From Patescibacteria group bacterium (GTDB taxonomy: Bacteria; Patescibacteriota; Patescibacteriia; UBA2591; JAQWAS01), in NCBI GenBank assembly GCA_028707495.1, contig JAQWAS010000001.1:48382-112381 (forward strand): DNA of 64,000 bases. The letters are read 5' to 3'. The translations under genes were made by a program, and so were the position numbers. Shown here one piece after another: positions 1,481-52,158 of the stretch; positions within the stretch are counted from its first letter, which is position 1, and every line of letters starts with the position of its first letter. Below the pieces are notes generated by a model that did not search any database, had not been told where the DNA came from, and saw nothing but the letters and a program-made list of their open reading frames with translations.

Positions 1481-1525
1481 AAAATTAAATTCTATGTCTA
1501 ACTATTTTCCAACATTTAAAAAAAT
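1481..1525. repeat. 45-bp direct repeat, copy 2 (overlaps sppA start)
   Basis: Matches 722-766 with 3 mismatches. Confidence 0.8.
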
Positions 1526-2363
1526 TCTTACTAAAACCTTGGGTTTTAATTTTAAGAAGTTTTTTAAAATTATTTTTATCATAATCATCTTCATCGCCGC
1601 CTATATTATCATTAAAGACGAAGTAAAATATCAATTAGATATAGGCGACGATTATTATGAAAGCGACGACTTATCGTCTGATTGTAATGTGGTTGGTGTC
1701 ATCTTGCATGGCGAGTTGGTGACATATATCGCAGATAGCGATGACTCTGAGAGTAATCAGACGACCTCCGAGAATATTGTTTATACTCTTGAAGATTTAG
1801 CAAAAAACGAGGATGTTAAGGCGATTATTTTAGAAATAGATTCATTGGGTGGAGATCCAGTGGCTGGCGAGGAAGTAGCTAACGCTTTAAAGCGCGTAAC
1901 CAAGCCCACAGTGGCTTTAATTAGGGGATATGGCGATTCAGCCGCTTATTGCGCGGCCACCGGCGCGGATGTGATTTTTGCTTCTAAAAATTCCGATATT
2001 GGCTGTATTGGCGCGACTGCGTCATATTTAGATTATTCTCAACAAAACCAGCAAGAAGGCATTACTTATAATCAGCTCAGCTCAGGCAAATTTAAAGATA
2101 TGTTTGATTATGATAAGCCTTTAACTACCGAAGAGAAGACATTAATTATGCGGGATATAAACATTTTACACGAGAATTTTATTAAAGATGTGGCCGAGAA
2201 TAGACAGATGGATATTGATCAAGTTAGAAAATTAGCTGATGGTTCAAGTATGTTGGGTGAGATGGCTTTAGAAAAAGGCTTGATTGATCAAATAGGCGAT
2301 GAATATGAAGTTAGAAAATATTTAAAAGAAAAATTAGGAGAAGAGATTAAAATCTGTTGGTAA
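1494..2363 (+). CDS. sppA: signal peptide peptidase SppA (S49 family, 36K type)
   Basis: N-terminal TM helix, then S49/ClpP-like core (ILEIDSLGGDPVAGEEVANALKR; GYGDSAAYCAATGADVIFA). Confidence 0.7.
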   Translation: MSNYFPTFKKILTKTLGFNFKKFFKIIFIIIIFIAAYIIIKDEVKYQLDIGDDYYESDDLSSDCNVVGVILHGELVTYIADSDDSESNQTTSENIVYTLEDLAKNEDVKAIILEIDSLGGDPVAGEEVANALKRVTKPTVALIRGYGDSAAYCAATGADVIFASKNSDIGCIGATASYLDYSQQNQQEGITYNQLSSGKFKDMFDYDKPLTTEEKTLIMRDINILHENFIKDVAENRQMDIDQVRKLADGSSMLGEMALEKGLIDQIGDEYEVRKYLKEKLGEEIKICW

Positions 2364-2596: not shown

Positions 2597-3076
2597 TTAT
2601 AGTGGTAAGCCGTTGGTGGCCAAGCTTTGATTTTTGTAAGCCGGGTCATCGGTTACCTGCTTAACAAAAACATCTGAAATGCATTGGGGCATTTGTGGAC
2701 TGGTGTCTTCTGATGGTAATTCTACCTCGGCGATGACAAGATCCTCAAGAAGAGCACCCTGATATTCGTCGATCTCCCAAGTTAGCCCGTCGTCACCCTG
2801 AATTTTGTATCGATATTTAACGAGACGACTGCTAGATGAGAGGTTTTCGAGAATTTCGTAAACCTCATAAGGAATTTCGATTTCTGTTTCTGTCCGTGTT
2901 AATCCCGAGCCGGTTTTTTGGGTTAACATAAACTTTTTCCCCTTGGCTCGGATGCGGATTTCAGGGTCGCCAGTCAGAAGATACTCTTGAACAATAAGAA
3001 TTGCATTGTCATTTTCGAGGCCTGGTGGCAAACCTCTCAACAGAAATTTTCTTTCAATTTCTTGATTTTTTGGCAT
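2597..3076 (-). CDS. CYTH-domain protein (triphosphate tunnel metalloenzyme family)
   Basis: Starts EIERKFLL, the hallmark CYTH N-terminal motif; size 159 aa. Confidence 0.65.
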   Translation of the reverse strand: MPKNQEIERKFLLRGLPPGLENDNAILIVQEYLLTGDPEIRIRAKGKKFMLTQKTGSGLTRTETEIEIPYEVYEILENLSSSSRLVKYRYKIQGDDGLTWEIDEYQGALLEDLVIAEVELPSEDTSPQMPQCISDVFVKQVTDDPAYKNQSLATNGLPL

Positions 3077-7756: not shown

Positions 7757-8170
7757 GTTAAGAATATAATTGAAGCGTTGATTTACGGGATTGCCACCTG
7801 CCTGCGGCGGGCAGGCGTCGTCGTCTGCCGAGTCGGCAGACTCCTCCTCGCAATGACACATACCTAAAGTGTCATACTGAACTTGTTTCAGCATCTGTTA
7901 GCGCCTAAAATGTTGATTCTTAAAAAATGTTTTTTTTCGACTACAGATCCTGAAATAAATTCAGGATGACAGAATAAATGTCATGCTGAACTCTAGTCCG
8001 CCAAATCGGAGGATGTTTCAGCATCTGTTAACAAAAGAAGTGTTATGCTGAACTTGTTTCAGCATCTGTAGTTGAGTTAAAATTTGTTATTTTAAATAGA
8101 CGTCATGAGTGTTTACAGATCCTGAAATAAATTCAGGATGACAATACAAAAATTCAGGATGACATCGATA
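7757..8170. repeat. hairpin-dense GC-rich repeat mosaic, left copy (core about 7794-7971)
   Basis: About 180-bp core about 97% identical to 17993-18169; contains nested perfect hairpins (gcctgc..gcaggc; ctgccga..tcggcag; atgacac..gtgtcat; atgctgaa..ttcagcat x3; atcctgaa..ttcaggat x2). Confidence 0.8.
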
Positions 8171-8176
8171 ATCAAC

Positions 8177-8210
8177 AAAAAGTGCAATATGTGTGTACAC
8201 ATTACCAATA
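8177..8210. mobile_element. solo IS-end remnant (matches terminus of IS at 51118-51153)
   Basis: caaaaagtgcaatatgtgtgtacacattacc is identical over 31 bp to the transposase-proximal end of the IS481-family element. Confidence 0.45.
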
Positions 8211-8214
8211 TACC

Positions 8215-8243
8215 TTGACAAGAAATTTAATTTATGCTAGTAT
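8215..8243 (+). promoter_or_regulatory. sigma70-type promoter TTGACA-N17-TAGTAT (promoter module copy 1)
   Basis: Consensus -35, 17-bp spacer, -10; same module at 38409, 51167, 52130. Confidence 0.55.
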
Positions 8244-8306
8244 ATAGATAGATAATAATTATGGTTCTTTAATATCATATTTAATTGCGAAAAGAACAGA
8301 CTGTTA

Positions 8307-9062
8307 ATGCGGTTGGTTGGTTATCTGACTGATTGCCTTAGTGGTCTACTCTTTTCGCAATTATTTACAAAACAAATTTTCCTAAAGGAGGAAAAAGTGG
8401 AAGCTAAAAAAATCCTAAGAATCATGATTAAAGTAGCTTTGATCGCTATGATTGCCTTTACTTTGTTTTGGGGTGCTTGGTATTTGATTACCGGTAGCAT
8501 ACCTTCGGTCGAAACTATCAAGATGACGGAAGGCTGGAGTATCATTCTGCCCTTTGCCATTCCGCGCTGGACTGACATTCCCCTAGCCGGCATATTTGCT
8601 TGTTTATTAGTTCTGTTGTTTACTAATAAGGGATGGCACAAGCGTTACGCCGACGAAATCGAATGGGAATATGATTATGTGGTCACTCTGTACGTAGGGT
8701 TTCTTTACGGGATAATTGTCGGGCTGGGTGCTGGGCTAATTTGCAGTGCGTGTGATTTAGGTGCCGGGCTAGGCGTCGGATTACTTTGCGGACTAGCTGT
8801 CGGCCTATTTTGGGGACCAGTTGGCGGGCTAGGCTTCAGCCTAGCTTGTATGCTAGGCATCGGTCTAAATATAGGGTTGTTTTACATGCCAGCCTTGGTT
8901 CCAGTTGCCGGGTTGGGTTTTGGGATAGGTGTCGGGCTAAAATATCTTTTTACTAGAGAATTCTGCAAGAAAATCGGTCATTTTATTGAAGGAGTCTACA
9001 AAAAGATCAGTCGTTTTATTGTAGAATCTAGTAAAAAGATTGGCTCTTGGATAACAAAATAA
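8307..9062 (+). CDS. glycine-zipper membrane protein (GxxxG repeats); alternative start GTG 8397 with strong SD
   Basis: Repeats GAGLGVGLLCGLAVGLFWGPVGGLGFSL; aaaggagg SD 8 nt before in-frame GTG at 8397. Confidence 0.5.
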   Translation: MRLVGYLTDCLSGLLFSQLFTKQIFLKEEKVEAKKILRIMIKVALIAMIAFTLFWGAWYLITGSIPSVETIKMTEGWSIILPFAIPRWTDIPLAGIFACLLVLLFTNKGWHKRYADEIEWEYDYVVTLYVGFLYGIIVGLGAGLICSACDLGAGLGVGLLCGLAVGLFWGPVGGLGFSLACMLGIGLNIGLFYMPALVPVAGLGFGIGVGLKYLFTREFCKKIGHFIEGVYKKISRFIVESSKKIGSWITK

Positions 9063-9072
9063 CAACGATTTT

Positions 9073-9104
9073 AAGGCCGAGGGAAATCCTCGGCCCTTGT
9101 TTAT
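9073..9104. terminator. bidirectional terminator (ggccgagg-gaaat-cctcggcc)
   Basis: Perfect 8-bp GC stem between convergent genes. Confidence 0.6.
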
Positions 9105-20923: not shown

Positions 20924-23900
20924 ATGCATCAATTCAAAATTCAACAGGAGGGAAAAAATAGCAAAAGAGCAATTATTTTTATAGTTGTTTTTACTTTTTT
21001 AAACGTATTTTTAATTTCATCTATTTCGTCTGTTTTGGCTCAGACCCCCATCCAGAGCAAGAATTTGATAAATGGCTTAAGTTTCTCGGGTGATAATTTA
21101 AAACAGATTGCATCTAAATCAATTGAAATAAATAAAGTTCCGGGCATTTTAAAATATACCCCCAAATTGACAAATTTAAATCAAAATTTAAACGAAAGTC
21201 ATTTATTAATTAACAATATTAAAATAGATAAGCAGTCTTGGTCTAGTTTTAAATTAGATGATTATCGTAATTTTAAAGAATATAAAATACAGGGACGAGT
21301 TAATTTAGGAGATTTAGATTATAAAGTTTTTGATATTGCAAATCTTTCCACGGTTGAATCTGTGGTTTTTTCAGGAAAAGTCACGACATTTCCAATTTTA
21401 AAACCTGATGGTCAAAATTATGGTCATGGTTTCGCAAGGGTAATTTTAATTGGTCAAGATGAAAAGGGCAAAATTCGTGAATATGCAGTTTTAGATACTT
21501 CTCATTTTTATGCTGACAAATTTGATAATTCTAAAAATGAATATGATTTTAATATGATTGGGGATGAAGCCTTAGCTCTTCCAGGTTCAATTAAACCCTT
21601 GCATCTCGTTGTTGAGGGTAGTAATGTTGAAGTTAATTTTGAAAAAATTTATTATTCAACAACTAAAACTGGTCTTGATTTTAAGCAAGTTTTAAACGAA
21701 CAAAATGATGCTAAAATTAGAATGATTAACGAAAAAAATGAGAGGTTTGGTTATCACTGGGAAGCGGGGAATACTGGCATTTCACAAGAATCTTATGAGA
21801 TAAAAAAGGCTTATTTAGGAGACACAATGACTGGTCAATATGACTCGGTTAAAGTTTATAAGCCCATGCCAAACGCTGAGATAATTTATTATTCTGGAGG
21901 CGTTTTTTCTTTTGTGCCCATGGGAGAAATGACATATTCTTTACCCTCAAGACATTTAGAAGATTCGGGGTCTGCAATGCTTCCATCTTCTCCAACGGCT
22001 TTGCCGGCTGATTATGATAAAATAGAATTCTCATGGAGAGATGCGCATAACCAAGATTGGACAACATCAGTTAAAACCCAGGTTGGCGCAACGTGTTGGG
22101 CGTACGCAGCCACAGCAGCCCATGAACTAATGGTTAATACTTATTTTGCAAGGCATTTAGATAAAGATTTAAGCGAACAGCAGTTTATATCAAGAGGCGG
22201 AACAACCGACCCCATTTGTGGAGGGCAAGTTAATCCCGCAGAACAGGTTGCTTATACCCGCGGTCAGTTTGATGAGACATGTTTCCCAGCAACGGGTTTA
22301 TCTACAACACCTTGCAGTCCTTGTGCGGATTGGGATACGAGGGCATGGAAATCAACAACATATGAAAATTCAATAAATTACAGAAACCCTGTTGACTTAA
22401 TGAAGGATTTAAGAAGCAACGCAGGTATGGTTTTAGGATTAAACGAATGGAATCACGCAGTTAATCTTGTTGGAGCTGAAATATGGAGAGACGATTCGTC
22501 GCTTATTATGGAATATAAAAATTCCTGGGGCCCAACATGGGGAATTGACGGTTATGGTTATTTGTACGGTCCGATAGATATTGCAGTTTTTAATAAATGG
22601 GGTCACCCTGAAACTGCGGCTACAGGAGCGCCGACAACACAGCTTTGCACTGATGCAGACAGCGATGGTTATTGTTGGTGGGGATTAGGATCTAAACCTT
22701 CAACTGGTTGTCCAACTAGCTGTGCAGGAAACAGTGTTGCTGATTGCGACGATTCAGATGCAAATAAACAAGGCCTAGTTGATGGGTATATTTGTGCTGA
22801 CAATTCGGACGTGATTTCGTCATGTACAACAATTAACTCCCCTGGAACATATTATTTAAGTGGGGACATGTCAGCAAGCGGAAATTGCATTAACATTAAC
22901 AGTGATAATGTAGCTTTAACGTGCAGTGGCGCAACAATCACAGGAACTGGAACAGGAACCGGCATAAAGATTGATTCACAATCTGATGTTAGAATTTATG
23001 ATTGTAATTTAAATAATTTTAATATTGGTGTTGAAATTTTAAACTCAGACGGAGTAATGTTAGCTGATTCAAATGTAAGCAATTCAAATACAGGATTTAA
23101 AATAAACGGAAGTGAAAACGTGGTTGAAAAATATGGAATTTTAACTTCAAACGGAAAAGGTGTTGAATTAATTAATTCAAATAATAATTACATTTATCAA
23201 AACACATTCCAATCAAATACATACGGAATTTATTTAACTAATTCATTAAATAATGAATTTCAGGGAAATGTGATTAAAACATCAAGCAATACAGGATTTT
23301 ATGCAGATAGTGCAAGTGATAATAATGAGGTCGGAAATTTATATGCGTGTAGCTCGTCTGTTAAGGATATTAATGATCAAGGAACAAATGATTATTCTAT
23401 AACTGCGTGCGGTTCAGCCACGGGGACAACTTGCGATTATACATGTTCTGTTGGATGCACCAATTTATATTGGCCGGCAACATATCCAGGGGGAGATGCA
23501 TATTATCCAGAGAGAATTAGAGAGACATCAGAAGAAGGCAAGCATTATTTTATAATTGATGCTTATGGCGGGACAATTAATTTATGCGAAGATGGTTATT
23601 ATCCGTTGGATTATCCAACACAGCAAATCTTACTCGGAACTTACAATGTTGTAGTTGATTTTAAAAATTCAGAATTTGTCGGCAAAACAAGGGATTATGG
23701 CGATTATATTTTTGATCCGGGCGTATATCCGCCTTTTGGAAATTATCCATTAGTCCGCGAGGATTATGATGCTTGGTTTTCAAAAGGAACAATTAAGAAT
23801 ATGAAAATATCAAATGTTTCTACCGGCATAGCGCTGATGGGAACTTCGGGCTCAACAATAACAACCTGGGATAATATTCACTTTGAAAATGTTAAAGTTG

Positions 23901-26900
23901 GTGCTTATGCAAGAAATTTAAAAATAATTAATTCTAAATTTATAAATTGCGATGAATATGGGATTTACCTTTATGATGTGGAAGGAAACCAGTTGATTGT
24001 TGAAAATTCAGAATTTAAAAATATCGGAATTAATGGGATTTACACCAATGCAGTGTCAACAGTACAGGTAGGGGGAACTGGAACAACCGACATTGAAAAA
24101 GGAAATTATTTTGAAAATTGCAATAAAATTTATCTTGGAAGAGGTGATACAACTGGAACTGATAATATTCGGCATAATGTTTTAGTTGATACGGGGCTAG
24201 AAACTGAGCTTGAAAATGTTAATTTTATTAATAATAAAATTTTTAATTCTCCTTATTATGGCTTAAATGTTTCTACCTATTCGGCAGGGACTGTGGCGGT
24301 TCAAAATAATACAGTTTGCGGAAGTATCGGAACAAGAGACATATATGATTCGTCTACCAGAGGAACCTATTTAAACAATGCCTGTGGCTCATCAACACCA
24401 AGTGGATTATGTGTTTTTACTGGCAATACTTATTATCGGGATGTAGATGGTGATGGATATGGAAATCCGGACACAACACAAACAAGAGCATGTCCAACTG
24501 TGGGCTATATTTGGAGAGCTGGTGATTGTGATGATACTGATGTAGATGTTAATCCAGAGGGAGAAGAAGTTTGTGATAATAAAGATAATAACTGTGATGG
24601 GACAACAGACAACATACTAGAAGATTGTGGTTCTGGTGTTTGTATTGGAACTAAATTATGCACTGCCGGGATTTGGGGTGTTTGTTCATCTTCGGGAAAT
24701 GATGCAGGAGTTTGTGCAAAATGTAGTGATACTGGAATTGCAGTTTATGACGGAACGCAAAATATAGATTGTGATGATGGAGCATACTGTAACGGTACAG
24801 AAGTTTGTAGTGCAATTTATACATGTACCGCAGGCACACCGATAAATTGTTCAGTTAACAATTTAGACCCAATTGGAATGTGCATTTGGAATCCAGACGG
24901 AAACCCATTAACCTGGGATTATTTTGCTGGTTTTACATCTGCATGCAATGAAACAACCGATTCATGCACTTCAGGAACAGTTGAATTAACACACACTTGC
25001 GACGTAACTACTTGTGGCGCAGAATGTGACGCAACCCACGAATGTGAAGACAGTTCATGCGAAGAAACATACACCGATTATTGTGATGGTTTAAAATTAA
25101 CAGAATACAATTCAAATCTTATTTTAGATTCAATTTTAATTTCTGATTCATGCGAAAATATGTGTGGAGTAGATTGTGGATGTACCGATTGCGACACGGA
25201 TTGTTCTGCGCCAAGTACGAACACATATTGTGTGAAAGACGTGTGTGGCGCAGTTTGCGATTCGCACGATGATTGTGCGCCAACAGAATGTACACACTTA
25301 AGCGGTTGTGTGGGTAATGATTATTATGAATATTCAAACGTGTCCAATGATTGTACGGGTGGTTGTGCTTGCACAAGCAATGACTGTGGAATACCAATAA
25401 TCTATGAGTTTGATTCAAGATGTGTTGAATGTATGATTGATGACGACTGCAATTCTTATGATGCAGACTATTGTACAGGAAATTCAATCATGCATGATGA
25501 GGGTAGATGTTTAGGGTATGTATGCGAAACTGAAACAACAGAAACGCAAAATTGTAATTTATTAAACAATAATTATTGTTTAGGAACAGACATTATGCAA
25601 GATATTTACACATGTTCATTGGCAGTCTGTGTAATTGATGAAACAAATTTAATTGAAAATTGTAATGATGAATTATATTGTAATGGAGCAGAAACATGCG
25701 CAGATGCAATTTGTACCGCAGGCACACCGATAAATTGTTCAGTTAACAATTTAGACCCAATTGGAATGTGCATTTGGAATCCAGACGGAAACCCATTAAC
25801 CTGGGATTATTTTGCTGGTTTTACATCTGCATGCAATGAAACAACCGATTCATGCACTTCAGGAACAGTTGAATTAACACACACTTGCGACGTAACTACT
25901 TGTGGCGCAGAATGTGACGCAACCCACGAATGTGAAGACAGTTCATGCGAAGAAACATACACCGATTATTGTGATGGTTTAAAATTAACAGAATACAATT
26001 CAAATCTTATTTTAGATTCAATTTTAATTTCTGATTCATGCGAAAATATGTGTGGAGTAGATTGTGGATGTACCGATTGCGACACGGATTGTTCTGCGCC
26101 AAGTACGAACACATATTGTGTGAAAGACGTGTGTGGCGCAGTTTGCGATTCGCACGATGATTGTGCGCCAACAGAATGTACACACTTAAGCGGTTGTGTG
26201 GGTAATGATTATTATGAATATTCAAACGTGTCCAATGATTGTACGGGTGGTTGTGCTTGCACAAGCAATGACTGTGGAATACCAATAATCTATGAGTTTG
26301 ATTCAAGATGTGTTGAATGTGTTGATTTAGATGATGAAGAAACTTTCTTGGGTAGGGTTGTCAGATCGGGCGATTCTTATCTTATAAATGATGATATTAT
26401 GTTATGTTCTGGAACATACAATTTTGACGATACGGCATTAATAGCTAATAGCAATAATTTGATTATTGATTGTAATGATGCGGAATTGATTGGACAAGGG
26501 ATAAGGTCTGGATATTATATTGATAATTATTATGGAATTGAAATTAACAATAAAAATAATGTTATTATTAAAAATTGTCATATTGAAAATTTTATAAAGG
26601 GATCAGTAATTAATAATGTTCAGGGTGTTCAGTTTATTGATAATGAATTTATTAACAATACAGATGCGAGTATCTATGGTGAGATGAGTATTAACGATGT
26701 TTTAATTCAAGGAAATTATATTATTAACGATCCCTTGGCTTCATCAACTTATGGGATTCAATTACAAGATGTTTCTAATTCATTAATTATTGAAAACAAC
26801 GTGAGTCAAAATAGTCTTGGTATTTATCTTGGACCTGATTCTGAAAATAATAATATAACAAACAATTATTTAGAAAATAATTTTAATTCAGGAATTTCAT

Positions 26901-28372
26901 TAACTTTAGCAAATAATAATTTAATTAATGGAAATAATTTAGAAAGCAATAGTAAAGGAATCACTACGAGTTCTTGTTCTAATATTGATATTTACAATAA
27001 CACAAATTTATTTAGTGAAGATGTCGGAATTGAGATTTATCAATCGGATCTTTGTGAGGTAATTAATAATACAATTATTGACTCAGGATTTGGAATTAAG
27101 GTGGAAATGGGAAATGATAATTCTATATTAAATAATAATATAGACGGTTCTATGCAAGGTATCAAAATATCAAGAACGACAAATAATAATATTGAAGATA
27201 ATATAATTGATATTAATGCGGGTTATTTAGAAAACGCTTATAGTATTGATGTTAGTGTGGGAACTGATGAATTATACAATAATTGTAATAATATTATAAA
27301 AAGAAATACGGACTCAGCAGGAAAGCAGATTATTTATTTTAAAAATGATGATGATATTGAATCAATTTTACCCATGATAATAGAACCAATTACAGAACTC
27401 ATATTGTGTAATACAGATGATGTGGTTGTTGATGGTATAGAAATTGATGGAAGTAATATCGATGGTAATACTAATGGTGTGATTATTGAAAGCTCAGATA
27501 ATATCATTTTTAGAAATTCAAACATTATTAATAGTTATATTGGAATTAATATTAGAGAGTCTAAATTTAATTATTTTAATTTAAATCAAATTAATAACAA
27601 TAATTTCGGAATAATATTAACAATGTCAAGTGAAAATATAATTGAAAATAATAATATTTGTGACAATGAATTTGTTGATTTATTGATTGGAGAGGCGAGT
27701 AGCTATAACGATGGTGATAATATTTGCAATGACGTTATTTATGGATCTGGATTAGAATTATATAATACTATTGAATGTTCAACTAGTTGTTCAGAGGCAA
27801 GAGTTAAATTTTTACCACCTTTAGAAAAAATAAAAGATATGTTTGGTATTATTGAAAATAAAATTAAAAAAGTTATAGGTATTAAAGTAAAGCTGGGAAA
27901 TGGCAATGAGACTTCCAATACAAAAATAATAGAAGACAATCAAATCGTAGATGAAAATAATGGAAACATAATTAAACCAAAAACAGAAGATAATTTTGTC
28001 ACTATCAAAGAGGGGGTTAAAATAGAAGGGACAGAAATAATTTTTGAACATCAAGATAACAATGTTGTTTTAGATTTAGAAATTAAAGAGACGACAGAAC
28101 AAGAAAAATTATCAGACGGAGTTGTTGTGATTGAAGAAGAAAATAAAGAAATTAAAGAATCTGAAATTGGTTCGATAATTAAAAATAAAAATGTTGAAAT
28201 AATGCCGATAGAAGTTGTTAAAAAAGAAACAGAAATGGTGGTTGGTGAATTTATGTCAAGTTTTAAAAAAGATATTATTGAAATTAAACCAGAAATAACA
28301 TCGACCGACATTTTAATCACCACTAAAGAGGGCGTTAAAAAAATAGAGGATTTGGAAGTCGATAAGAATTAA
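20924..28372 (+). CDS. giant secreted multidomain protein (2482 aa): signal peptide, papain-like C1 cysteine protease, two parallel beta-helix repeat blocks, Cys-rich metal-binding-like modules, duplicated Cys-rich modules, E/K/I-rich C-terminal region
   Basis: C1 catalytic signatures QVGATCWAYA (Gln/Cys), NHAVNLVG (His), YKNSWGPTWGIDGYGY (Asn/Trp); beta-helix repeats such as NNNYIYQNTFQSNTYGIYLTNS; DVDGDGYGNPD..CDDTDVDVNPEGEEVCDNKDNNCDG. Confidence 0.85.
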   Translation: MHQFKIQQEGKNSKRAIIFIVVFTFLNVFLISSISSVLAQTPIQSKNLINGLSFSGDNLKQIASKSIEINKVPGILKYTPKLTNLNQNLNESHLLINNIKIDKQSWSSFKLDDYRNFKEYKIQGRVNLGDLDYKVFDIANLSTVESVVFSGKVTTFPILKPDGQNYGHGFARVILIGQDEKGKIREYAVLDTSHFYADKFDNSKNEYDFNMIGDEALALPGSIKPLHLVVEGSNVEVNFEKIYYSTTKTGLDFKQVLNEQNDAKIRMINEKNERFGYHWEAGNTGISQESYEIKKAYLGDTMTGQYDSVKVYKPMPNAEIIYYSGGVFSFVPMGEMTYSLPSRHLEDSGSAMLPSSPTALPADYDKIEFSWRDAHNQDWTTSVKTQVGATCWAYAATAAHELMVNTYFARHLDKDLSEQQFISRGGTTDPICGGQVNPAEQVAYTRGQFDETCFPATGLSTTPCSPCADWDTRAWKSTTYENSINYRNPVDLMKDLRSNAGMVLGLNEWNHAVNLVGAEIWRDDSSLIMEYKNSWGPTWGIDGYGYLYGPIDIAVFNKWGHPETAATGAPTTQLCTDADSDGYCWWGLGSKPSTGCPTSCAGNSVADCDDSDANKQGLVDGYICADNSDVISSCTTINSPGTYYLSGDMSASGNCININSDNVALTCSGATITGTGTGTGIKIDSQSDVRIYDCNLNNFNIGVEILNSDGVMLADSNVSNSNTGFKINGSENVVEKYGILTSNGKGVELINSNNNYIYQNTFQSNTYGIYLTNSLNNEFQGNVIKTSSNTGFYADSASDNNEVGNLYACSSSVKDINDQGTNDYSITACGSATGTTCDYTCSVGCTNLYWPATYPGGDAYYPERIRETSEEGKHYFIIDAYGGTINLCEDGYYPLDYPTQQILLGTYNVVVDFKNSEFVGKTRDYGDYIFDPGVYPPFGNYPLVREDYDAWFSKGTIKNMKISNVSTGIALMGTSGSTITTWDNIHFENVKVGAYARNLKIINSKFINCDEYGIYLYDVEGNQLIVENSEFKNIGINGIYTNAVSTVQVGGTGTTDIEKGNYFENCNKIYLGRGDTTGTDNIRHNVLVDTGLETELENVNFINNKIFNSPYYGLNVSTYSAGTVAVQNNTVCGSIGTRDIYDSSTRGTYLNNACGSSTPSGLCVFTGNTYYRDVDGDGYGNPDTTQTRACPTVGYIWRAGDCDDTDVDVNPEGEEVCDNKDNNCDGTTDNILEDCGSGVCIGTKLCTAGIWGVCSSSGNDAGVCAKCSDTGIAVYDGTQNIDCDDGAYCNGTEVCSAIYTCTAGTPINCSVNNLDPIGMCIWNPDGNPLTWDYFAGFTSACNETTDSCTSGTVELTHTCDVTTCGAECDATHECEDSSCEETYTDYCDGLKLTEYNSNLILDSILISDSCENMCGVDCGCTDCDTDCSAPSTNTYCVKDVCGAVCDSHDDCAPTECTHLSGCVGNDYYEYSNVSNDCTGGCACTSNDCGIPIIYEFDSRCVECMIDDDCNSYDADYCTGNSIMHDEGRCLGYVCETETTETQNCNLLNNNYCLGTDIMQDIYTCSLAVCVIDETNLIENCNDELYCNGAETCADAICTAGTPINCSVNNLDPIGMCIWNPDGNPLTWDYFAGFTSACNETTDSCTSGTVELTHTCDVTTCGAECDATHECEDSSCEETYTDYCDGLKLTEYNSNLILDSILISDSCENMCGVDCGCTDCDTDCSAPSTNTYCVKDVCGAVCDSHDDCAPTECTHLSGCVGNDYYEYSNVSNDCTGGCACTSNDCGIPIIYEFDSRCVECVDLDDEETFLGRVVRSGDSYLINDDIMLCSGTYNFDDTALIANSNNLIIDCNDAELIGQGIRSGYYIDNYYGIEINNKNNVIIKNCHIENFIKGSVINNVQGVQFIDNEFINNTDASIYGEMSINDVLIQGNYIINDPLASSTYGIQLQDVSNSLIIENNVSQNSLGIYLGPDSENNNITNNYLENNFNSGISLTLANNNLINGNNLESNSKGITTSSCSNIDIYNNTNLFSEDVGIEIYQSDLCEVINNTIIDSGFGIKVEMGNDNSILNNNIDGSMQGIKISRTTNNNIEDNIIDINAGYLENAYSIDVSVGTDELYNNCNNIIKRNTDSAGKQIIYFKNDDDIESILPMIIEPITELILCNTDDVVVDGIEIDGSNIDGNTNGVIIESSDNIIFRNSNIINSYIGINIRESKFNYFNLNQINNNNFGIILTMSSENIIENNNICDNEFVDLLIGEASSYNDGDNICNDVIYGSGLELYNTIECSTSCSEARVKFLPPLEKIKDMFGIIENKIKKVIGIKVKLGNGNETSNTKIIEDNQIVDENNGNIIKPKTEDNFVTIKEGVKIEGTEIIFEHQDNNVVLDLEIKETTEQEKLSDGVVVIEEENKEIKESEIGSIIKNKNVEIMPIEVVKKETEMVVGEFMSSFKKDIIEIKPEITSTDILITTKEGVKKIEDLEVDKN
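24824..25434 (+). repeat. perfect tandem duplication, copy 1 (611 bp, period 888 bp)
   Basis: Identical at every position I compared to 25712-26322; explains the two identical minus-strand phantom ORFs. Confidence 0.85.
25712..26322 (+). repeat. perfect tandem duplication, copy 2
   Basis: See copy 1. Confidence 0.85.
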
Positions 28373-33479: not shown

Positions 33480-34369
33480 ATGAAAAGATGTTGCGTATTA
33501 CTGGGATTGATTTTAATCTCGGTATTTTCCGTTCAGGGGTTTGAGAACGATCCAGACTTGAACCGAGAAAACTTGGTCGATATGATCAATAGCTATCGGG
33601 AAGATTACAAATATTCACCTCTAGAAATTAGCCCAACTCTGGAACGGTTGGCTATGGACTATTGCAAGAAAATTCTTCGAACGGGCGTAATTAATCCCGA
33701 CTCGGCGAGTTTGGATGGCGGGCTGACAGAGAGAATCAAAGCCAGTGGTTATAAGGGCACTTATCAATATCAAGTAGCTATGCAACGGAACGATGGTTTT
33801 AGTCTAAGCTACGTCCTGAGTCAATTATTCGAGGATTCCGAAGTACTTAGGAGCTCAGACTATCAGCACATTGGTATTGGTTATATCACTGCTTCACAAA
33901 AACCACCTACGTCATTATTTTTGGTGGGAGCGGTTCAAGCCAAAAAAAAGATTCACCACAAGATCTGATTAAAAACATTAACGATTTCAGGTCTTCGATT
34001 GGTGCGCCACCGTTAAAAAATAACCATCTCTTATCTTTGGCTGCCCAAAATCACTGTCAGTATTTATTTGAAGTGGAAGATTTTAGCCATTGGGGAAGAG
34101 ACGGGTCGTATCCGGCTGACAGGATTAAGGCTTGTGGATATAAAGCTGTCTACAGTGGCGAAAATCTTGCCGCTGTTGCTGGCGGATTTAATTCACAAGA
34201 GGTCGTTAAAGGATGGGAAAATAGCCCTAAACATCGAGAAATAATGTCGGATCGACATTACGAAGAGATAGGTATTGGCTATATCACCACAGACGAATGG
34301 GGATACGAAGATCTTTACGGTACAATGGTGACTATCTATGTGGTGACCTTTGGGGCTCGTGATGATTAG
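33480..34369 (+). pseudogene. secreted tandem CAP/SCP (PR-1-like) domain protein interrupted by a -1 frameshift in an A8 tract at 33942-33949 (ORFs 33480-33968 and about 33941-34369)
   Basis: Signal peptide; both halves begin with a CAP-type N-terminus and carry GIGY; second half has GENLAAV and HYEEIGIGY; adding one A restores a single about 300-aa frame. Confidence 0.5.
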
Positions 34370-38371: not shown

Positions 38372-38404
38372 TGAAGCTCGTGCATTTGCGCGAGCTTTTT
38401 ATTT
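38372..38404 (+). terminator. rho-independent terminator (aagctcg..cgagctt + T5)
   Basis: 7-bp stem plus TTTTT. Confidence 0.55.
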
Positions 38405-38408
38405 ACTC

Positions 38409-38437
38409 TTGACAAGAAATTAAATATATGCTAGTAT
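38409..38437 (+). promoter_or_regulatory. promoter module copy 2: TTGACA-N17-TAGTAT
   Basis: Near-identical to 8215-8243. Confidence 0.55.
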
Positions 38438-49731: not shown

Positions 49732-50127
49732 ATGAAAAAATATTTCGTAAGCGAATTGGTGGCCGTTATTCTAACTGTTATACTGTATTTAATAACCAGA
49801 TTAGTTTTTAAACTTAGTTATGAGATTTCAATGGGGGTAATATTCTTTTTTTCTCTACTCATATTAGCTAATTCTGAAGTTGAAATTGGGGCAGCCGATG
49901 GTGTCGTAACAATTGTTGTCGGTATTTTTATCGGCTTTGTTAATCCAATTGCGAGTATAATAGTTTTTTTGGGAACAATTACCGCTATAATTATAATGAT
50001 AGCTTCGGTAAGTAGCGATAAGACTCTCAACTCTAGAATCAAAAAATTTTTCATTTTCATGACCTTGCTGGTAGAATTTATTTTTTTAGGAATGGCCTTT
50101 GATCAATTTCTACCAACGTTCTTATAG
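49732..50127 (+). CDS. small membrane protein (131 aa)
   Basis: Three to four hydrophobic helices. Confidence 0.4.
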   Translation: MKKYFVSELVAVILTVILYLITRLVFKLSYEISMGVIFFFSLLILANSEVEIGAADGVVTIVVGIFIGFVNPIASIIVFLGTITAIIIMIASVSSDKTLNSRIKKFFIFMTLLVEFIFLGMAFDQFLPTFL

Positions 50128-50133
50128 TTTTCT

Positions 50134-50162
50134 TAAAAACCGCTACAATGGCGGTTTTTTAT
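50134..50162 (+). terminator. rho-independent terminator (aaaaccgc..gcggtttt + T6) abutting IS end
   Basis: 8-bp stem plus TTTTTT. Confidence 0.6.
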
Positions 50163-51153
50163 TGTTTTAGACACATACATTTTGCACCCTCAAACCAAGG
50201 GCTTGATTAGGAGTTAGACCGTTTAAGGCACAATGTTCTAAATCATTGTAATACATATTCCAAAGTTTAATCTTGTATTTTAATTCTTCAAAACTATTAA
50301 ATTTAACCTGGTTATAGAATTGTTCTTGATCGGTACGATGACTACGCTCTACGTGTCCATTTTGAGCAGGCTTACCAGGATCAATCAGATAATGTTGTAT
50401 GTTTAATCTTTGACATTCTAAATCAAGTATGTGTAGGCGTGGATTAAGTGGATGGATACTTTTAATATAGCCCGTATAACGATTAGTGAAGATCGAAGCA
50501 TTGTCAGTCTTGATAGCTAAGATTTTATGAGGGAAGTTTTGAATAACTTGATTAAAAAAATCTAGACTTAAATGATTGCCTTGGGCTTCATAGATTTTAA
50601 TATAGCGCCAACGTGTAGCACAGTCAATAGCTGTAAACTGGTAAAAACGCCTAGAACCTAGTAATTGAGGCACATATTTAACGTCTATCTCAACTAAGTC
50701 ACCTGGTTGTAGTTGTGCTTTAACATACTTGTATTTAACTTTACGCACACGATATTTACGTGTTAAACCCTCTGTTTTGATGATTTTACCAATAGTGCGA
50801 TGATGAAGATGAATCCCTTGTTTATTTAAGCGCCAGGCTAATTTTTGAGCGCACAGACCTGTTTCTTGTCTTAACTCAATAACTTGTTCTTTGATTCGAA
50901 TAGACGTCTCTTGGGGATGGCTTTTAGGGCGAGTTGACTTGTTGACTAGACCAGCTAAACCAGACTGTTTAAAGTTAGCTAACCAATACTTAAGAGTCCT
51001 TTCACAGAAGGGACAAACTTGAACCATATTTTTAATGGTAATTTTACCATCAAGGATTGGTTTAATCCAACGAAGTTTTTCTTCGATTGTTGATTTGGGC
51101 ATAGTTTTAGACATGCCCCTAGTTTAGCAAAAAGTGCAATATGTGTGTACACA
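50160..51153 (-). mobile_element. IS481-family insertion sequence (about 1 kb) with imperfect terminal inverted repeats
   Basis: TIR candidates tgttttagacacatacattttgcac (left) and reverse complement of gtgcaatatgtgtgtacaca (right); transposase stop codon lies inside the IR as usual for IS481. Confidence 0.6.
50167..51114 (-). CDS. DDE transposase, IS481 family (HTH + integrase core)
   Basis: N-terminal HTH; rve core with D..D..E (IDVKYV, KTDNASIF, HVERSHRT). Confidence 0.75.
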   Translation of the reverse strand: MSKTMPKSTIEEKLRWIKPILDGKITIKNMVQVCPFCERTLKYWLANFKQSGLAGLVNKSTRPKSHPQETSIRIKEQVIELRQETGLCAQKLAWRLNKQGIHLHHRTIGKIIKTEGLTRKYRVRKVKYKYVKAQLQPGDLVEIDVKYVPQLLGSRRFYQFTAIDCATRWRYIKIYEAQGNHLSLDFFNQVIQNFPHKILAIKTDNASIFTNRYTGYIKSIHPLNPRLHILDLECQRLNIQHYLIDPGKPAQNGHVERSHRTDQEQFYNQVKFNSFEELKYKIKLWNMYYNDLEHCALNGLTPNQALGLRVQNVCV

Positions 51154-51166
51154 TTACCTTATCCCC

Positions 51167-51195
51167 TTGACAAGAAAAATAATTTATGATAACAT
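51167..51195 (+). promoter_or_regulatory. promoter module copy 3: TTGACA-N17-TAACAT, directly outside IS end
   Basis: Same module as 8215, 38409, 52130. Confidence 0.45.
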
Positions 51196-51295
51196 ATAGA
51201 TAGTTCGTTTAATGCCTGGATTATCCTAGGAGGGTAATTTCAGGAACAAAATGTTTCATTTAAAATTGTTCCCAGGAGGAACAAGGAGGTATTTC

Positions 51296-52075
51296 ATGCT
51301 CGGAGAAGGTAAACTCAAACACACAGCAGTAGTTGTGCGTAGTTACAAAAACTCTCATGTTACGCAGCAAATTCGAAATCTGTTGAATATGGGTGTGGGA
51401 AAGATCTACGTGGTGGTTAAGAATACCGAGGATAAGGGGTCAACCAAGGGTTGGCTCAAAAAATATAAGAACGATCCTAGGTTGGAAGTCTTCGAGATGG
51501 AAGATGGATATACCTGGTGTAATGCGCTTAATGCGGCGATCTACAAGATTCAAATGGAAAATCTCTCTGAGAGATCCACTGTCGAGTTCGTGCTGAATCT
51601 GTCGGTAGAAACCAAGATCACCAAGAAACACCTGGTTACTATGTTGGACGTTTTGACTGACAGTCAACGCGTCGGCGTAGTAGGTAGTTCTTTTGTCGGT
51701 TACTGTCAGGGCAATCAGGTTAGTCTCGGGAGATCATACCGTCACCCCCGTAACACTGGGATGGTGATTAGATTTGAGGTGTTTAAAAAACTTCTCGGTC
51801 TATTCAACAACTTGTGTGATGACAAGGGCGGCATGGAGGATATCGAATTTATCCTTCGCATGTTAGTATACACCAACTATGAATACAGGATGCTCAATTT
51901 GGGTATCAAGCTCGTTGTAGGGGTGTATTACAATCAGGACACGAAGGAACAAAGAGAGCAATCTGCCATGGATCTGATTATTCAGATGTGGCGCAACACT
52001 TTTCCCAACAAAGACTCTGAGGGTCGTCTGCGCTTCGAAAATGCAATCGCAGAAATGGGACTCGAAGAAGCTTAA
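51296..52075 (+). CDS. GT-A-fold (GT2-like) glycosyltransferase-like protein, compositionally foreign (GC-rich); start at ATG 51296 with AGGAGG SD
   Basis: TAVVVRSYKN..KIYVVVKN GT-A N-terminus; GGMEDIEFILRM resembles GT2 EDxDxxxR; GC visibly higher than flanks. Confidence 0.45.
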   Translation: MLGEGKLKHTAVVVRSYKNSHVTQQIRNLLNMGVGKIYVVVKNTEDKGSTKGWLKKYKNDPRLEVFEMEDGYTWCNALNAAIYKIQMENLSERSTVEFVLNLSVETKITKKHLVTMLDVLTDSQRVGVVGSSFVGYCQGNQVSLGRSYRHPRNTGMVIRFEVFKKLLGLFNNLCDDKGGMEDIEFILRMLVYTNYEYRMLNLGIKLVVGVYYNQDTKEQREQSAMDLIIQMWRNTFPNKDSEGRLRFENAIAEMGLEEA

Positions 52076-52092
52076 AGCTTTCTTTCGGTATA

Positions 52093-52127
52093 ACGCCGTC
52101 GACAGTTTTGTCGGCGGCTTTTTATTA
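52093..52127 (+). terminator. GC-rich rho-independent terminator (gccgtcgaca..tgtcggcggc + T5)
   Basis: 10-bp stem with one G-U pair, then TTTTT. Confidence 0.6.
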
Positions 52128-52129
52128 TC

Positions 52130-52158
52130 TTGACAAGAAAAATAATTTAAAGTATAAT
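52130..52158 (+). promoter_or_regulatory. promoter module copy 4: TTGACA-N17-TATAAT upstream of typA
   Basis: Perfect consensus hexamers. Confidence 0.6.

What the first reader, a model, noticed from the sequence alone, without database searches (positions are those of the whole stretch)
50160..52127. IS481-family element adjacent to a GC-rich, compositionally foreign GT-A-like gene with its own SD and GC-rich terminator
The IS (50160-51153) has imperfect terminal inverted repeats, and its transposase stop codon lies inside the IR, as is typical for IS481. Immediately outside its end lies a promoter module (51167-51195). Next comes a 259-aa ORF starting at ATG 51296 with an AGGAGG SD. This ORF has clearly higher GC and G/C-ending codons than its surroundings. 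It carries GT-A/GT2-like features (VVVRSYKN..IYVVVKN; EDIEFILRM) and ends with a GC-rich terminator (52093-52127). This looks like recently acquired cargo mobilised or activated by the IS.
Basis: partly seen in the sequence, partly recalled or inferred. Interest (0 to 1): 0.5.

Follow-up and report, generated by a model that had tools for sequence, protein, structure and literature searches.

The report
Promoter-seeking insertion sequence beside foreign glycosyltransferase-like gene
A real 996-bp jumping gene sits next to a GC-rich, probably horizontally acquired sugar-transferase-like gene, but it did not carry that gene or its promoter: it belongs to a group of jumping genes that land exactly 8 bases upstream of bacterial promoters.

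Summary
The IS481-like element is 50163-51158 (996 bp), has imperfect terminal inverted repeats (IRs), its stop codon lies in the left IR, and it is flanked by a 4-bp target-site duplication (TSD), TTAT.

- **Not cargo:** the duplication brackets the IS alone. Other copies of this IS clade, in 33 independent flanks, sit beside unrelated genes.
- **Promoter is the target:** 28 of 33 flanks have TTGAC at exactly +9 to +13 from the IS end (P about 1e-78). 27 of 33 have a -10 box 16-18 nt further on. The orientation is always the same.
- **Foreign origin is plausible but not shown to be recent:** relatives are other Patescibacteria proteins at 54% identity or less. The family's GC3 exceeds that of neighbouring genes in 13 of 13 loci.

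I found no report of an IS that inserts at a fixed distance from the -35 box.

The parts
50135..50159 (+). Intrinsic terminator of the upstream 131-aa orphan membrane ORF (49732-50127)
   Evidence: Terminator scan. RNAfold -12.1 kcal/mol. The ORF has no homolog other than itself.
50159..50162 (.). Left copy of the 4-bp target-site duplication, TTAT
   Evidence: Identical to 51159-51162. 4-bp duplications occur in 6 of 18 full copies against a 2.6% chance rate, P = 4e-6.
50163..51158 (-). IS481-family insertion sequence, 996 bp. Left IR about 50163-50187. Right IR about 51129-51158.
   Evidence: The ends are set by where identity stops in copies with at least 6 different left flanks and many right flanks. 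Copies 96-99.8% identical occur in several metagenomes.
50167..51114 (-). Transposase gene, 315 aa. Its stop codon lies inside the left IR.
   Evidence: Pfam rve 5.5e-11, rve_3 1.9e-13, HTH_32, HTH_28, LZ_Tnp_IS481. NCBIfam IS481 scores 208 bits against a cutoff of 224. Identical to MDD4606806.1.
51159..51162 (.). Right copy of the 4-bp target-site duplication, TTAT
51167..51195 (+). Resident sigma70-type promoter of the GT-like gene (TTGACA, 17 nt with TG, TAACAT). It is the target of the IS, not part of it.
   Evidence: Promoter scan. TTGAC sits at +9 to +13 from the IS end in 28 of 33 independent flanks, and a -10 box follows in 27 of 33.
51196..51295 (+). 5' leader with two hairpins. H1 is 51215-51244 (loop UAGGA). 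H2 is 51266-51284 (UUGUUCC-CAGGA-GGAACAA). H2 abuts the ribosome-binding site AGGAGG at 51284-51289.
   Evidence: RNAfold. Two hairpins in equivalent positions occur in the leaders of 12 homolog loci. Formal covariation support is weak. No Rfam match.
51296..52075 (+). 259-aa GT-A-fold protein of an unannotated family. GC-rich compositional outlier.
52095..52123 (+). GC-rich intrinsic terminator of the GT-like gene
   Evidence: 10-bp stem with 7 GC pairs plus a T-run. -18.5 kcal/mol.
52130..52158 (+). typA/bipA promoter (12/12 consensus). Its -35 and spacer are 21/21 identical to the GT-gene promoter.
   Evidence: TypA is identified by Pfam.
8176..8206 (+). 31-nt solo remnant of the same IS right end. 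It lies 8 nt upstream of another TTGACA promoter (8215-8243) that drives a second GC-richer ORF (8397-9062).
   Evidence: BLAST 88% over 77 nt against 51128-51203. Exact 25-mer match. ORF GC3 about 0.42. No Pfam hit.

Best explanation
Two independent things are juxtaposed.

(1) The gene cassette. It comprises its own sigma70 promoter, a structured leader, a ribosome-binding site, a 259-aa GT-A-fold enzyme and a strong terminator. It lies between an orphan membrane gene and typA. The enzyme is probably a soluble nucleotide-sugar-dependent transferase of an uncharacterised family confined largely to Patescibacteria. Its GC3 is twice that of the host. Family members are GC3-enriched relative to their neighbours in every locus examined. 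The most likely history is horizontal acquisition from a higher-GC member of the same radiation, not yet ameliorated (inferred).

(2) The IS. A 996-bp IS481-like element later inserted, making a 4-bp TTAT duplication, exactly 8 nt upstream of the -35 hexamer of that cassette's promoter. Its transposase gene points away from the promoter (shown). This is not specific to this gene. The whole IS clade (copies 61-99.8% identical) inserts in this register and orientation next to unrelated promoters (shown).

The proposed mechanism is asymmetric recognition of the TTGAC(A) motif, or of promoter-bound RNA polymerase/sigma, by the transposition complex. Selection would then remove insertions at non-promoter TTGAC sites (inferred). 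Insertion there leaves the core promoter and the gene intact, so it acts as a safe harbour in a gene-dense small genome. Copies seem to persist preferentially upstream of dispensable, foreign-looking genes (inferred from the finding that the DNA 100-800 nt downstream of the IS end is GC-richer than the rest of its contig in 13 of 16 cases). That would explain why an IS and a foreign gene are neighbours here.
For: IS limits and duplication. 6 of 18 full copies show a 4-bp duplication against 2.6% by chance, P = 4e-6.

Target register:
- 28 of 33 independent flanks have TTGAC at +9 to +13. The background rate is 0.00107 per position, giving P about 1e-78.
- 27 of 33 have TAnnnT 16-18 nt after the hexamer, and positions 29-30 are enriched for TG.
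- 2 of 3 additional sites from more distant transposases also conform.
- Apart from the -35 and -10 boxes, most flanks share no sequence, and the downstream genes are diverse.

GT-like gene:
- GC3 outlier.
- The family's GC3 exceeds the neighbours' mean in 13 of 13 loci, with z up to 14.
- The family is rare and Patescibacteria-centred and absent from viral contigs.
- GT-A fold.
- The same promoter, long leader and terminator layout appears in the seven loci inspected, and long leaders with two hairpins in 13.

IS near foreign-looking genes: the 100-800 nt downstream of the IS end are GC-richer than the rest of the contig in 13 of 16 cases, sign test P = 0.02.
Against: - Only 6 of 18 copies show a clean 4-bp duplication. 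The rest may be chimeric metagenome assemblies or recombinants, but this was not shown.
- No empty site or donor sequence was found, so the order of events and the horizontal origin of the gene rest on composition alone.
- A uniformly higher GC3 in all 13 homolog loci could instead reflect a constraint intrinsic to this gene family.
- The 46 nt beyond the IS end (51159-51204) recur at 81-87% identity, with a sharp common 3' boundary, beside the IS end at 8207-8251 and in L019. In L019 a 4-bp repeat flanks IS plus promoter. Occasional co-movement of a promoter with the IS is therefore not excluded.
- Target recognition by the transposase is inferred from surviving insertions only.
Confidence: 0.72

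Rival explanations
1. The IS mobilised the GT-like gene as a passenger, through one-ended or composite transposition that used an alternative right end beyond the gene. The 1.96-kb block 50163-52125 would then have arrived as a unit upstream of the typA promoter.
For: - TTAT also occurs at 52122-52125, exactly 8 nt upstream of the typA -35 box. A composite inserted by the clade's target rule would give this geometry.
- The reconstructed pre-IS junction (50150-50162 joined to 51163-51186) and 52113-52149 are 33/37 identical.
- A second member of this rare GT family (L017, Falkowbacteria) also has a solo right end of the IS family 8 nt upstream of its promoter.
- The DNA just downstream of the IS end is GC-richer than the rest of its contig in 13 of 16 cases.
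Against: - A perfect TTAT duplication flanks the IS alone.
- Nothing resembling the IS IR lies at 52095-52125.
- 33 independent flanks carry unrelated genes.
- The L017 and window cases differ in promoter sequence and IS lineage, and the proteins are only 40% identical.
- A similar terminator-tail-plus-promoter junction also occurs at 38385-38437 with no IS, so the 37-nt repeat can be stereotyped host architecture.
Confidence: 0.1
2. The IS supplies or carries the promoter, acting as a mobile promoter, and so switches on a gene that arrived without one. The mobile unit would be about 1042 bp (50163-51204).
For: - Identity with other copies in L019 and L021-L023 runs on to 51204.
- The 46-nt tail with the promoter recurs beside IS ends at 8207-8251 and in L019, and ends sharply at ...ATA(G/A)ATAG in all three.
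- In L019 a 4-bp repeat flanks IS plus tail.
- Promoters that propagate within genomes are described in the literature (reference list of PMC9208149).
Against: - In the window the duplication sits at the 996-bp ends. The 4 nt after 51204 (TTCG) do not match TTAT.
- The tail is only 72-87% identical between copies whose IS bodies are 99.8% identical, so it is not part of the recently spreading unit.
- Across the clade the flanks are mostly unrelated promoters.
- Resident promoters at 38409, 49634 and 52130 belong to the same TTGACAAGA type without any IS.
- GT-family genes in other genomes have their own promoters.
Confidence: 0.1
3. The GT-like gene is vertically inherited. Its high GC3 would reflect a constraint specific to this gene family, such as mRNA structure, expression level or GC-biased gene conversion at a recombination-prone locus, rather than foreign origin.
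For: - GC3 is higher than in neighbouring genes in all 13 homolog loci, whatever the host GC. Random transfers would be expected to give differences in both directions.
- The promoter and leader in the window are AT-rich and of host type.
Against: - The size of the excess varies widely, from z = 0.5 to z = 14, and is near zero in GC-rich hosts. This fits transfer from GC-rich donors.
- The family is very patchy, with 13 loci among 185,579 species genomes.
- Two Doudnabacteria carry proteins only 43% identical.
- Other single-gene GC3-rich units exist in this window.
- Highly expressed native genes here have low GC3.
Confidence: 0.08

Closest known systems
IS481 family of insertion sequences (IS481 and IS1002 of Bordetella)
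   Same: About 1 kb. A single DDE (rve) transposase ORF with N-terminal helix-turn-helix and leucine-zipper regions. Imperfect terminal IRs starting TGT. Stop codon in the IR. Short target duplication. IS481 is the best-scoring NCBIfam model.
   Different: The score is below the NCBIfam equivalog cutoff (208 against 224). The duplication is 4 bp. The target is N4-N4-TTGAC(A) upstream of promoters in one orientation, not the NCTAGN reported for IS481/IS1002 (the latter from my own knowledge). Known IS481 effects on neighbouring genes come from outward promoters inside the IS; here the promoter is in the target.
Mobile elements that use transcription signals as safe harbours: class C group II introns inserting after intrinsic terminators, and yeast Ty3 and Tf1 integrating at or upstream of promoters (from my own knowledge)
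   Same: Insertion at a fixed position relative to a transcription signal. Genes are spared, which allows persistence in compact genomes.
   Different: These are retroelements with different enzymes and different signals. Here a DDE transposase element uses a bacterial sigma70 -35 box. No interaction with the transcription machinery has been shown.
IS elements with sequence-specific intergenic targets (IS1397/ISKpn1 in REP sequences; IS1111/IS110 guided by seekRNA or bridge RNA)
   Same: Orientation-specific insertion into recurring intergenic motifs (PMC1525189 and PMC11187229, listed).
   Different: Those targets are repeats or RNA-specified sites. Here the target is a functional promoter element shared by otherwise unrelated sequences.
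GT-A fold, family GT2 glycosyltransferases (SpsA 1qg8/1h7l, PcManGT 6yv7, WrtF 9omh, TarP 6h1j)
   Different: 12-16% identity. Pfam Glycos_transf_2 scores 13.9 bits against a 23.3 cutoff. The DXD site reads S103-V104-E105. No membrane or polymerase domains. No characterised member.
Mobile promoters / promoter propagation in prokaryotes (Matus-Garcia et al. 2012, cited in PMC9208149)
   Same: Near-identical promoter sequences (CTTGACAAGAAA..AATTTA) lie upstream of non-homologous genes at 8214, 38408, 51166 and 52129, plus the related 49634 promoter found. Two of them abut IS ends.
   Different: Movement of the promoter itself is not demonstrated here. The duplication in the window brackets the IS only.

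Membership tests
IS481 family | Single ORF encoding a DDE transposase with an rve (integrase core) domain | tested here: met
   rve 5.5e-11 and rve_3 1.9e-13. One intact 315-aa ORF.
IS481 family | Transposase reaches the curated IS481 family model threshold | tested here: inconclusive
   NF033577 is the best hit by far (208.4 bits, E 1.5e-61) but falls below the 224-bit cutoff. Pfam LZ_Tnp_IS481 scores 23.9 against a 22.2 cutoff. Related proteins are named IS481 family transposase by NCBI.
IS481 family | Terminal imperfect inverted repeats, with the stop codon in the IR | tested here: met
   TGTTTTAGACACATACATTTTGCAC against the reverse complement of the right end..TGTGTACACACATATTGCAC. The stop lies at 50167-50169 inside the left IR.
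IS481 family | Short direct target duplication | tested here: met
   TTAT in the window. 4-bp duplications in 6 of 18 copies against 2.6% by chance.
IS481 family | NCTAGN-type target, as in IS481 and IS1002 | tested here: not met
   The target is N8 followed by TTGAC(A). No CTAG occurs at the junctions. This is a property of some members, not of the family.
Composite or passenger-carrying transposon (IS plus GT-like gene as one unit) | A target duplication and element ends bracket both the IS and the passenger | tested here: not met
   The duplication brackets 50163-51158 only. No IR-like sequence lies after the gene.
Composite or passenger-carrying transposon (IS plus GT-like gene as one unit) | The same passenger accompanies other copies of the IS | tested here: not met
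   33 independent flanks carry different genes. The one other GT-family case (L017) is an independent event.
IS with an outward-facing promoter | The promoter, or its -35 box, lies inside the IS boundaries | tested here: not met
   The -35 box starts 9 nt outside the IS end, beyond the duplication.
GT-A fold glycosyltransferase (GT2-like) | GT-A Rossmann-like fold | tested here: met
GT-A fold glycosyltransferase (GT2-like) | Match to Pfam Glycos_transf_2 (PF00535) above the gathering score | tested here: not met
   13.9 bits against 23.3, E 0.05. Only 1 of 48 homologs carries a precomputed PF00535 hit.
GT-A fold glycosyltransferase (GT2-like) | DXD metal/nucleotide-sugar motif after strand beta-4 | tested here: not met
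   The position reads S103 (invariant), V104, E105 (both at least 90% conserved). An acidic residue is kept, so metal binding is not excluded.
GT-A fold glycosyltransferase (GT2-like) | Glycosyl transfer activity and donor/acceptor identity | not testable with these tools
   No characterised relative. No PDB sequence hit.

The most novel reading that the evidence does not exclude
A broad clade of IS481-like elements in Patescibacteria uses sigma70 promoters as integration sites. Insertion is orientation-specific and occurs exactly 8 bp upstream of the -35 hexamer. This could work through direct read-out of TTGACA by the transposase or through promoter-bound RNA polymerase/sigma. Occasionally the element may drag the 46-nt promoter along, generating mobile promoters. 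This would be a bacterial DNA-transposon counterpart of promoter-targeted integration by Ty3 and Tf1. It would also be a safe-harbour strategy suited to tiny, gene-dense genomes.
Probability: 0.55. Interest if true: 0.75.

Novelty: new variant of a known kind. Interest (0 to 1): 0.6.

Why it matters
As first framed, the locus is ordinary: an IS next to a foreign gene. What matters is why the two are neighbours.

- **For annotation and interpretation.** In these genomes an IS next to a promoter-bearing gene should not be read as IS-mediated activation or cargo.
- **For transposon biology.** A DDE transposase that finds the -35 box with single-base precision and fixed polarity would be a compact, natural promoter-proximal integration system. 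It is directly testable because it needs only a 996-bp element and a TTGACA target. It would also show how mobile DNA survives in genomes with almost no spare sequence.
- **For the protein family.** The GT-like gene defines a small unannotated GT-A family. The family has a non-canonical S-V-E site and a conserved two-hairpin leader. It is a candidate for a surface or metabolite glycosylation function exchanged among Patescibacteria.

Tried and rejected
- **Empty-site or donor search.** Exact look-ups of the 131-aa neighbour and TypA found only the same sample or nothing. A homology search of the 131-aa ORF returned only itself. The 100% identical contigs L001 and L029 simply break inside the IS ends.
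- **Look-up of the transposase** through a window reference and through P0049 failed. The cluster members P0169 and P0170 worked.
- **Viral origin of the GT family.** No relative in IMG/VR.
- **Known RNA in the leader or window.** No Rfam hit at gathering thresholds; only chance-level hits at E of 0.3 or more in three leaders. No tRNA in the window.
- **PDB by sequence.** Only a spurious hit at E 0.14.
- **Pfam on distant family members.** Nothing informative, apart from one weak Glyco_transf_7C hit.
- **RNAalifold on the ribosome-binding-site-proximal hairpin.** It gave only 4 pairs and a weak covariation term, because MAFFT did not align the stems in register. I did not build a covariance model.
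- **IS ends at 51204.** I first read the BLAST identity running to 51204 as the IS carrying the promoter. I rejected this after the 32-locus scan showed unrelated flanks and duplications at the 996-bp ends.
- **28-nt and 37-nt direct repeats around the gene.** I first considered these a footprint of insertion. I downgraded this because the same junction type occurs at 38385-38437 and five promoters share the TTGACAAGA type.
- **Literature.** Four searches and one paper read found no report of -35-register targeting.
Full report
**Setting**

The window is 32.4% GC and mostly plus-strand genes. It matches a Patescibacteria (CPR) MAG at 100%: locus tags PHS07_, transposase MDD4606806.1 and neighbouring hypothetical protein MDD4606807.1.

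**Checking the observation**

The minus-strand ORF 50167-51114 encodes a 315-aa protein.
- It has rve/rve_3 integrase-core domains, HTH_28/HTH_32 domains and the IS481 leucine-zipper domain.
- Its best NCBIfam model by a wide margin is IS481, at 208 bits, just under the 224-bit equivalog cutoff.

The plus-strand ORF from ATG 51296 is preceded by AGGAGG (51284-51289). It is followed by a 10-bp, 7-GC stem plus T-run at 52095-52123, with a folding energy of -18.5 kcal/mol.

A consensus-like promoter lies at 51167-51195: TTGACA, a 17-nt spacer with an extended-10 TG, then TAACAT.

Among 56 non-overlapping ORFs of at least 100 aa, this ORF has the highest GC (0.44) and the highest GC3 (0.52). The window mean GC3 is 0.247 with sd 0.068, so z is about 4. 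The elevated GC coincides with the coding region and the terminator stem. The promoter and leader are AT-rich.

**True limits of the IS**

Near-identical transposases (cluster members P0169 and P0170) lie on eleven short contigs from several projects. Aligned to the window, all stop at 50163 on the left, with at least six different flanks.

An exact 23-mer from the right end was then searched in JGI metagenomes. It returned 32 more loci. With these, the element is defined as TGTTTTAG...CATTACC, 993-996 bp, which is window 50163-51158.

In the window it is bracketed by TTAT/TTAT. Clean 4-bp duplications also occur in L033 (TGAA), L042 (CAAA), L043 (TAAA), L045 (AGAT) and L060 (AAAA). That is 6 of 18 full copies, against 2.6% for mismatched flank pairs (P = 4e-6). 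These copies are only 61-69% identical in DNA to the window IS, so they represent a clade and not one element.

Two contigs 100% identical to the window (L001 and L029) break inside the two IS ends. IS-only contigs of about 996 bp are common. Both are the usual signs of a multicopy, recently active repeat.

**The unexpected result: what lies beyond the right end**

After removing near-duplicates there are 33 independent right flanks.
- 28 have TTGAC at exactly positions +9 to +13 after the IS end. Position +14 is A in 25 and T in 7.
- 27 have TAnnnT 16-18 nt after the hexamer.
- Positions 29-30 are enriched for TG, as in an extended -10 box.
- Otherwise the flanks are mostly unrelated in sequence.

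TTGAC occurs at 0.00107 per position in the same loci, so the probability of 28 or more out of 33 is about 1e-78.

Three of the five exceptions still carry a recognisable promoter at or near this register.
- L034+ has TAGCCA, a 17-nt spacer and TATAAT in the same register.
- L030/L056 has ATGACA shifted by one base.
- L046 has TTGACA further away.

Two of three further sites, reached through more distant transposases (P0086 and P0146), also conform.

The left flanks show no such motif. They are often the T-tails of the upstream gene's terminator.

The duplication occupies +1 to +4, so the promoter is target DNA. The IS inserts 8 bp upstream of -35 boxes, always with the transposase gene diverging from the promoter. 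In the window, TTGACA begins at 51167, which is 51158 + 9.

The promoter module is not linked to the IS. It is the resident promoter of the GT-like gene, and it is the reason the IS is there.

The gene is not a passenger.
- It lies outside the duplication.
- No IR-like sequence follows it.
- The genes downstream of the other IS copies are diverse: histidine-phosphatase-like proteins, small membrane proteins, repeat proteins and many hypotheticals.

Activation cannot be excluded experimentally, but it is not needed. The core promoter is complete, and insertion replaces only DNA upstream of about -43.

**A real, weaker association with foreign-looking genes**

In 13 of 16 loci with enough sequence, the 100-800 nt downstream of the IS end are GC-richer than the rest of the contig. 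The mean difference is +0.069, and the sign test gives P = 0.02.

The window holds a second example. A 31-nt solo remnant of the IS right end (8176-8206) lies 8 nt before another TTGACA promoter. That promoter drives a Gly-rich membrane ORF (8397-9062) with GC3 of about 0.42.

I interpret this as survivorship. Insertions next to promoters of dispensable, acquired genes are better tolerated. This is inference.

**The GT-like protein**

- Sequence searches find only a small family: 48 clusters at 90% identity, and 192 representatives at E<=1e-3 among 1.84 billion. None is annotated.
- Pfam gives only a sub-threshold GT2 hit (13.9 against 23.3 bits). No PDB chain matches by sequence.
- With the 48-sequence alignment, AlphaFold2 gives pLDDT 95.2 and pTM 0.92.
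- Invariant or near-invariant residues include D46, S103-V104-E105 at the usual DXD position, the block G145-x-S147-Y148-x-H150-P151-R152-N153-T154, and G179-M-E-D182 within GGMEDIEF.

It is therefore a soluble GT-A-fold enzyme with a non-canonical metal or donor site. Glycosyl or related nucleotide-sugar transfer is the most likely chemistry, but this is inferred.

**Origin of the gene**

Thirteen genome loci carry relatives. Ten are labelled as Patescibacteria lineages or unclassified bacteria: Magasanik-, Morani-, Pacei-, Doudna-, Lipton- and Falkowbacteria. Three are MAGs labelled Gammaproteobacteria. None is in viral contigs.

The window protein is the most isolated member, with at most 54% identity to any other.

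In all 13 loci where it could be measured, the homolog's GC3 exceeds the mean of its neighbours. The z-score ranges from 0.5 in GC-rich hosts to 5.9, 10.9 and 14 in L008, L012 and L013.

Patchy distribution, variable contrast and two dissimilar versions within Doudnabacteria favour repeated transfer from GC-richer donors within the radiation. The one-sided sign of the difference leaves room for an intrinsic constraint.

Recency could not be tested. No empty site, no near-identical donor and no relative of the orphan neighbour exist in the databases.

**Cassette anatomy**

In the seven loci whose flanks I read, the gene has its own TTGACA/TAnnAT promoter, a 90-160-nt leader and a GC-rich terminator.

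Minimum-free-energy folds of 13 leaders place two hairpins in equivalent positions. Their stems differ between loci, for example UUGUUCC/GGAACAA in the window, UUCGUCC/GGACGAA in L012 and UCACCC/GGGUGA in L013. The second hairpin ends 2-5 nt before the ribosome-binding site. It is often nested in a helix that pairs an upstream UCC/UUCC with the ribosome-binding site itself.

There is no Rfam match. An RNAalifold run on a MAFFT alignment gave only weak support. I report this as a lead and not as a finding.

**Unresolved details**

(a) The 46 nt after the IS end (51159-51204) are 81-87% identical to the sequence after the IS remnant at 8207-8251 and to the flank in L019. All three stop being similar after ...ATA(G/A)ATAG. 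In L019 a 4-bp repeat brackets IS plus tail. This hints that a promoter can occasionally travel with the IS. However, the tail is far more diverged than the 99.8%-identical IS bodies, and in the window the duplication excludes the tail.

(b) The -35 box and spacer of the GT promoter are 21/21 identical to the typA promoter 963 bp downstream. With the IS removed, a 37-nt stretch (terminator tail plus promoter) is 33/37 identical on both sides of the gene. A very similar junction at 38385-38437, and five TTGACAAGA-type promoters in the window, suggest stereotyped or propagated promoters rather than an insertion footprint.

(c) A second member of the rare GT family (L017, Falkowbacteria) also has a solo IS right end 8 nt before its promoter. 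Two of 15 family loci is more than I would expect, but the baseline is unknown.

**Comparison with what is known**

The element fits the IS481 family in transposase type, size, IRs and short duplication. Its target differs from the NCTAGN of IS481/IS1002, which I cite from my own knowledge.

The literature held here describes several related things:
- IS elements with outward promoters or -35 boxes;
- IS elements enriched in promoter regions;
- REP-targeting and RNA-guided IS elements;
- 'mobile promoters'.

These come from PMC9330008, PMC9208149, PMC1525189 and PMC11187229. In four searches I found no report of an IS that inserts at a fixed distance from the -35 hexamer with fixed polarity. 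This is absence in a partial library, not proof of novelty.

**Verdict**

The most interesting content is the promoter-register target specificity of this IS clade.

Noticed in passing
window 8176-9100: A 31-nt solo remnant of the same IS right end (8176-8206) lies 8 nt before a TTGACA promoter (8215-8243). A long leader (about 150 nt) follows, then a GC-richer Gly-rich membrane ORF (8397-9062, GC3 about 0.42, no Pfam hit) and a GC-rich terminator. Similar solo ends of 31-38 nt occur in L017, L048 and L049. How they arise is unexplained.
   Followed up: partly
window 7780-8175: An intergenic cluster of short repeats. The palindrome ATCCTGAAATAAATTCAGGAT occurs twice, AAATTCAGGATGACA three times, and TGTCATGCTGAACT..TGTTTCAGCATCTGT three times. 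GC-rich palindromes lie at 7790-7845. This looks like a graveyard of small mobile repeats.
   Followed up: partly
leaders upstream of the GT-family genes: window 51196-51295; L004, L006-L016: Two hairpins sit in conserved positions, with stems that differ between loci and loops or 3' arms rich in AUGG(G/A). The second abuts, and is often nested in a helix that sequesters, the ribosome-binding site. No Rfam match. This may be a family-specific translational control element.
   Followed up: partly
L017 4890-4975 (Candidatus Falkowbacteria RIFOXYA2_FULL_47_19): A solo right end of the IS family (..AAAAGTGCAATATGTGTGCACACATTACC), then N8 and TTGACA, directly upstream of that genome's GT-family gene. 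The arrangement of IS end, promoter and GT-like gene therefore recurs in 2 of 15 family loci.
   Followed up: partly
L019 (also L021-L023), both IS junctions: A 4-bp repeat (GTTA in window orientation) flanks the IS plus a 46-nt promoter tail (1042 bp) rather than the 996-bp IS. The tail is 81% identical to window 51167-51204. This may be promoter co-mobilisation, chance, or chimeric assembly, since L020 pairs the same left flank with a different right flank.
   Followed up: partly
window 8214, 38408, 49634, 51166, 52129: A stereotyped promoter type, CTTGACAAGA(A/G)A..AATT(T)A, lies upstream of five unrelated genes. Three of them follow a terminator tail TTTTTAT at 3-5 nt. The pattern resembles 'promoter propagation'.
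   Followed up: partly
window 1494-2363, 2597-3076 (minus strand), 33480-33968: Other single ORFs with raised GC3: 0.35 (S49 peptidase), 0.40 (CYTH domain) and 0.44 (CAP domain). The CYTH and CAP genes each have their own TTGACA promoter. The genome seems dotted with single-gene GC-rich units.
   Followed up: partly
L030-L061, downstream of IS right ends: The 100-800 nt downstream of the IS end are GC-richer than the rest of their contig in 13 of 16 cases, including both window sites and L017, which was added from the GT-family search; the mean difference is +0.069. Two of the downstream genes look like histidine phosphatases (L036, L045/L053).
   Followed up: partly
window 51251 versus 51296: GenBank annotates the GT-like protein from ATG 51251 (274 aa, MDD4606807.1). 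Alignment with homologs and the position of the ribosome-binding site support ATG 51296 (259 aa).
   Followed up: yes
window 20924-28372: A single 2,482-aa ORF. No tRNA or Rfam-recognised RNA occurs anywhere in the 64 kb.
   Followed up: no
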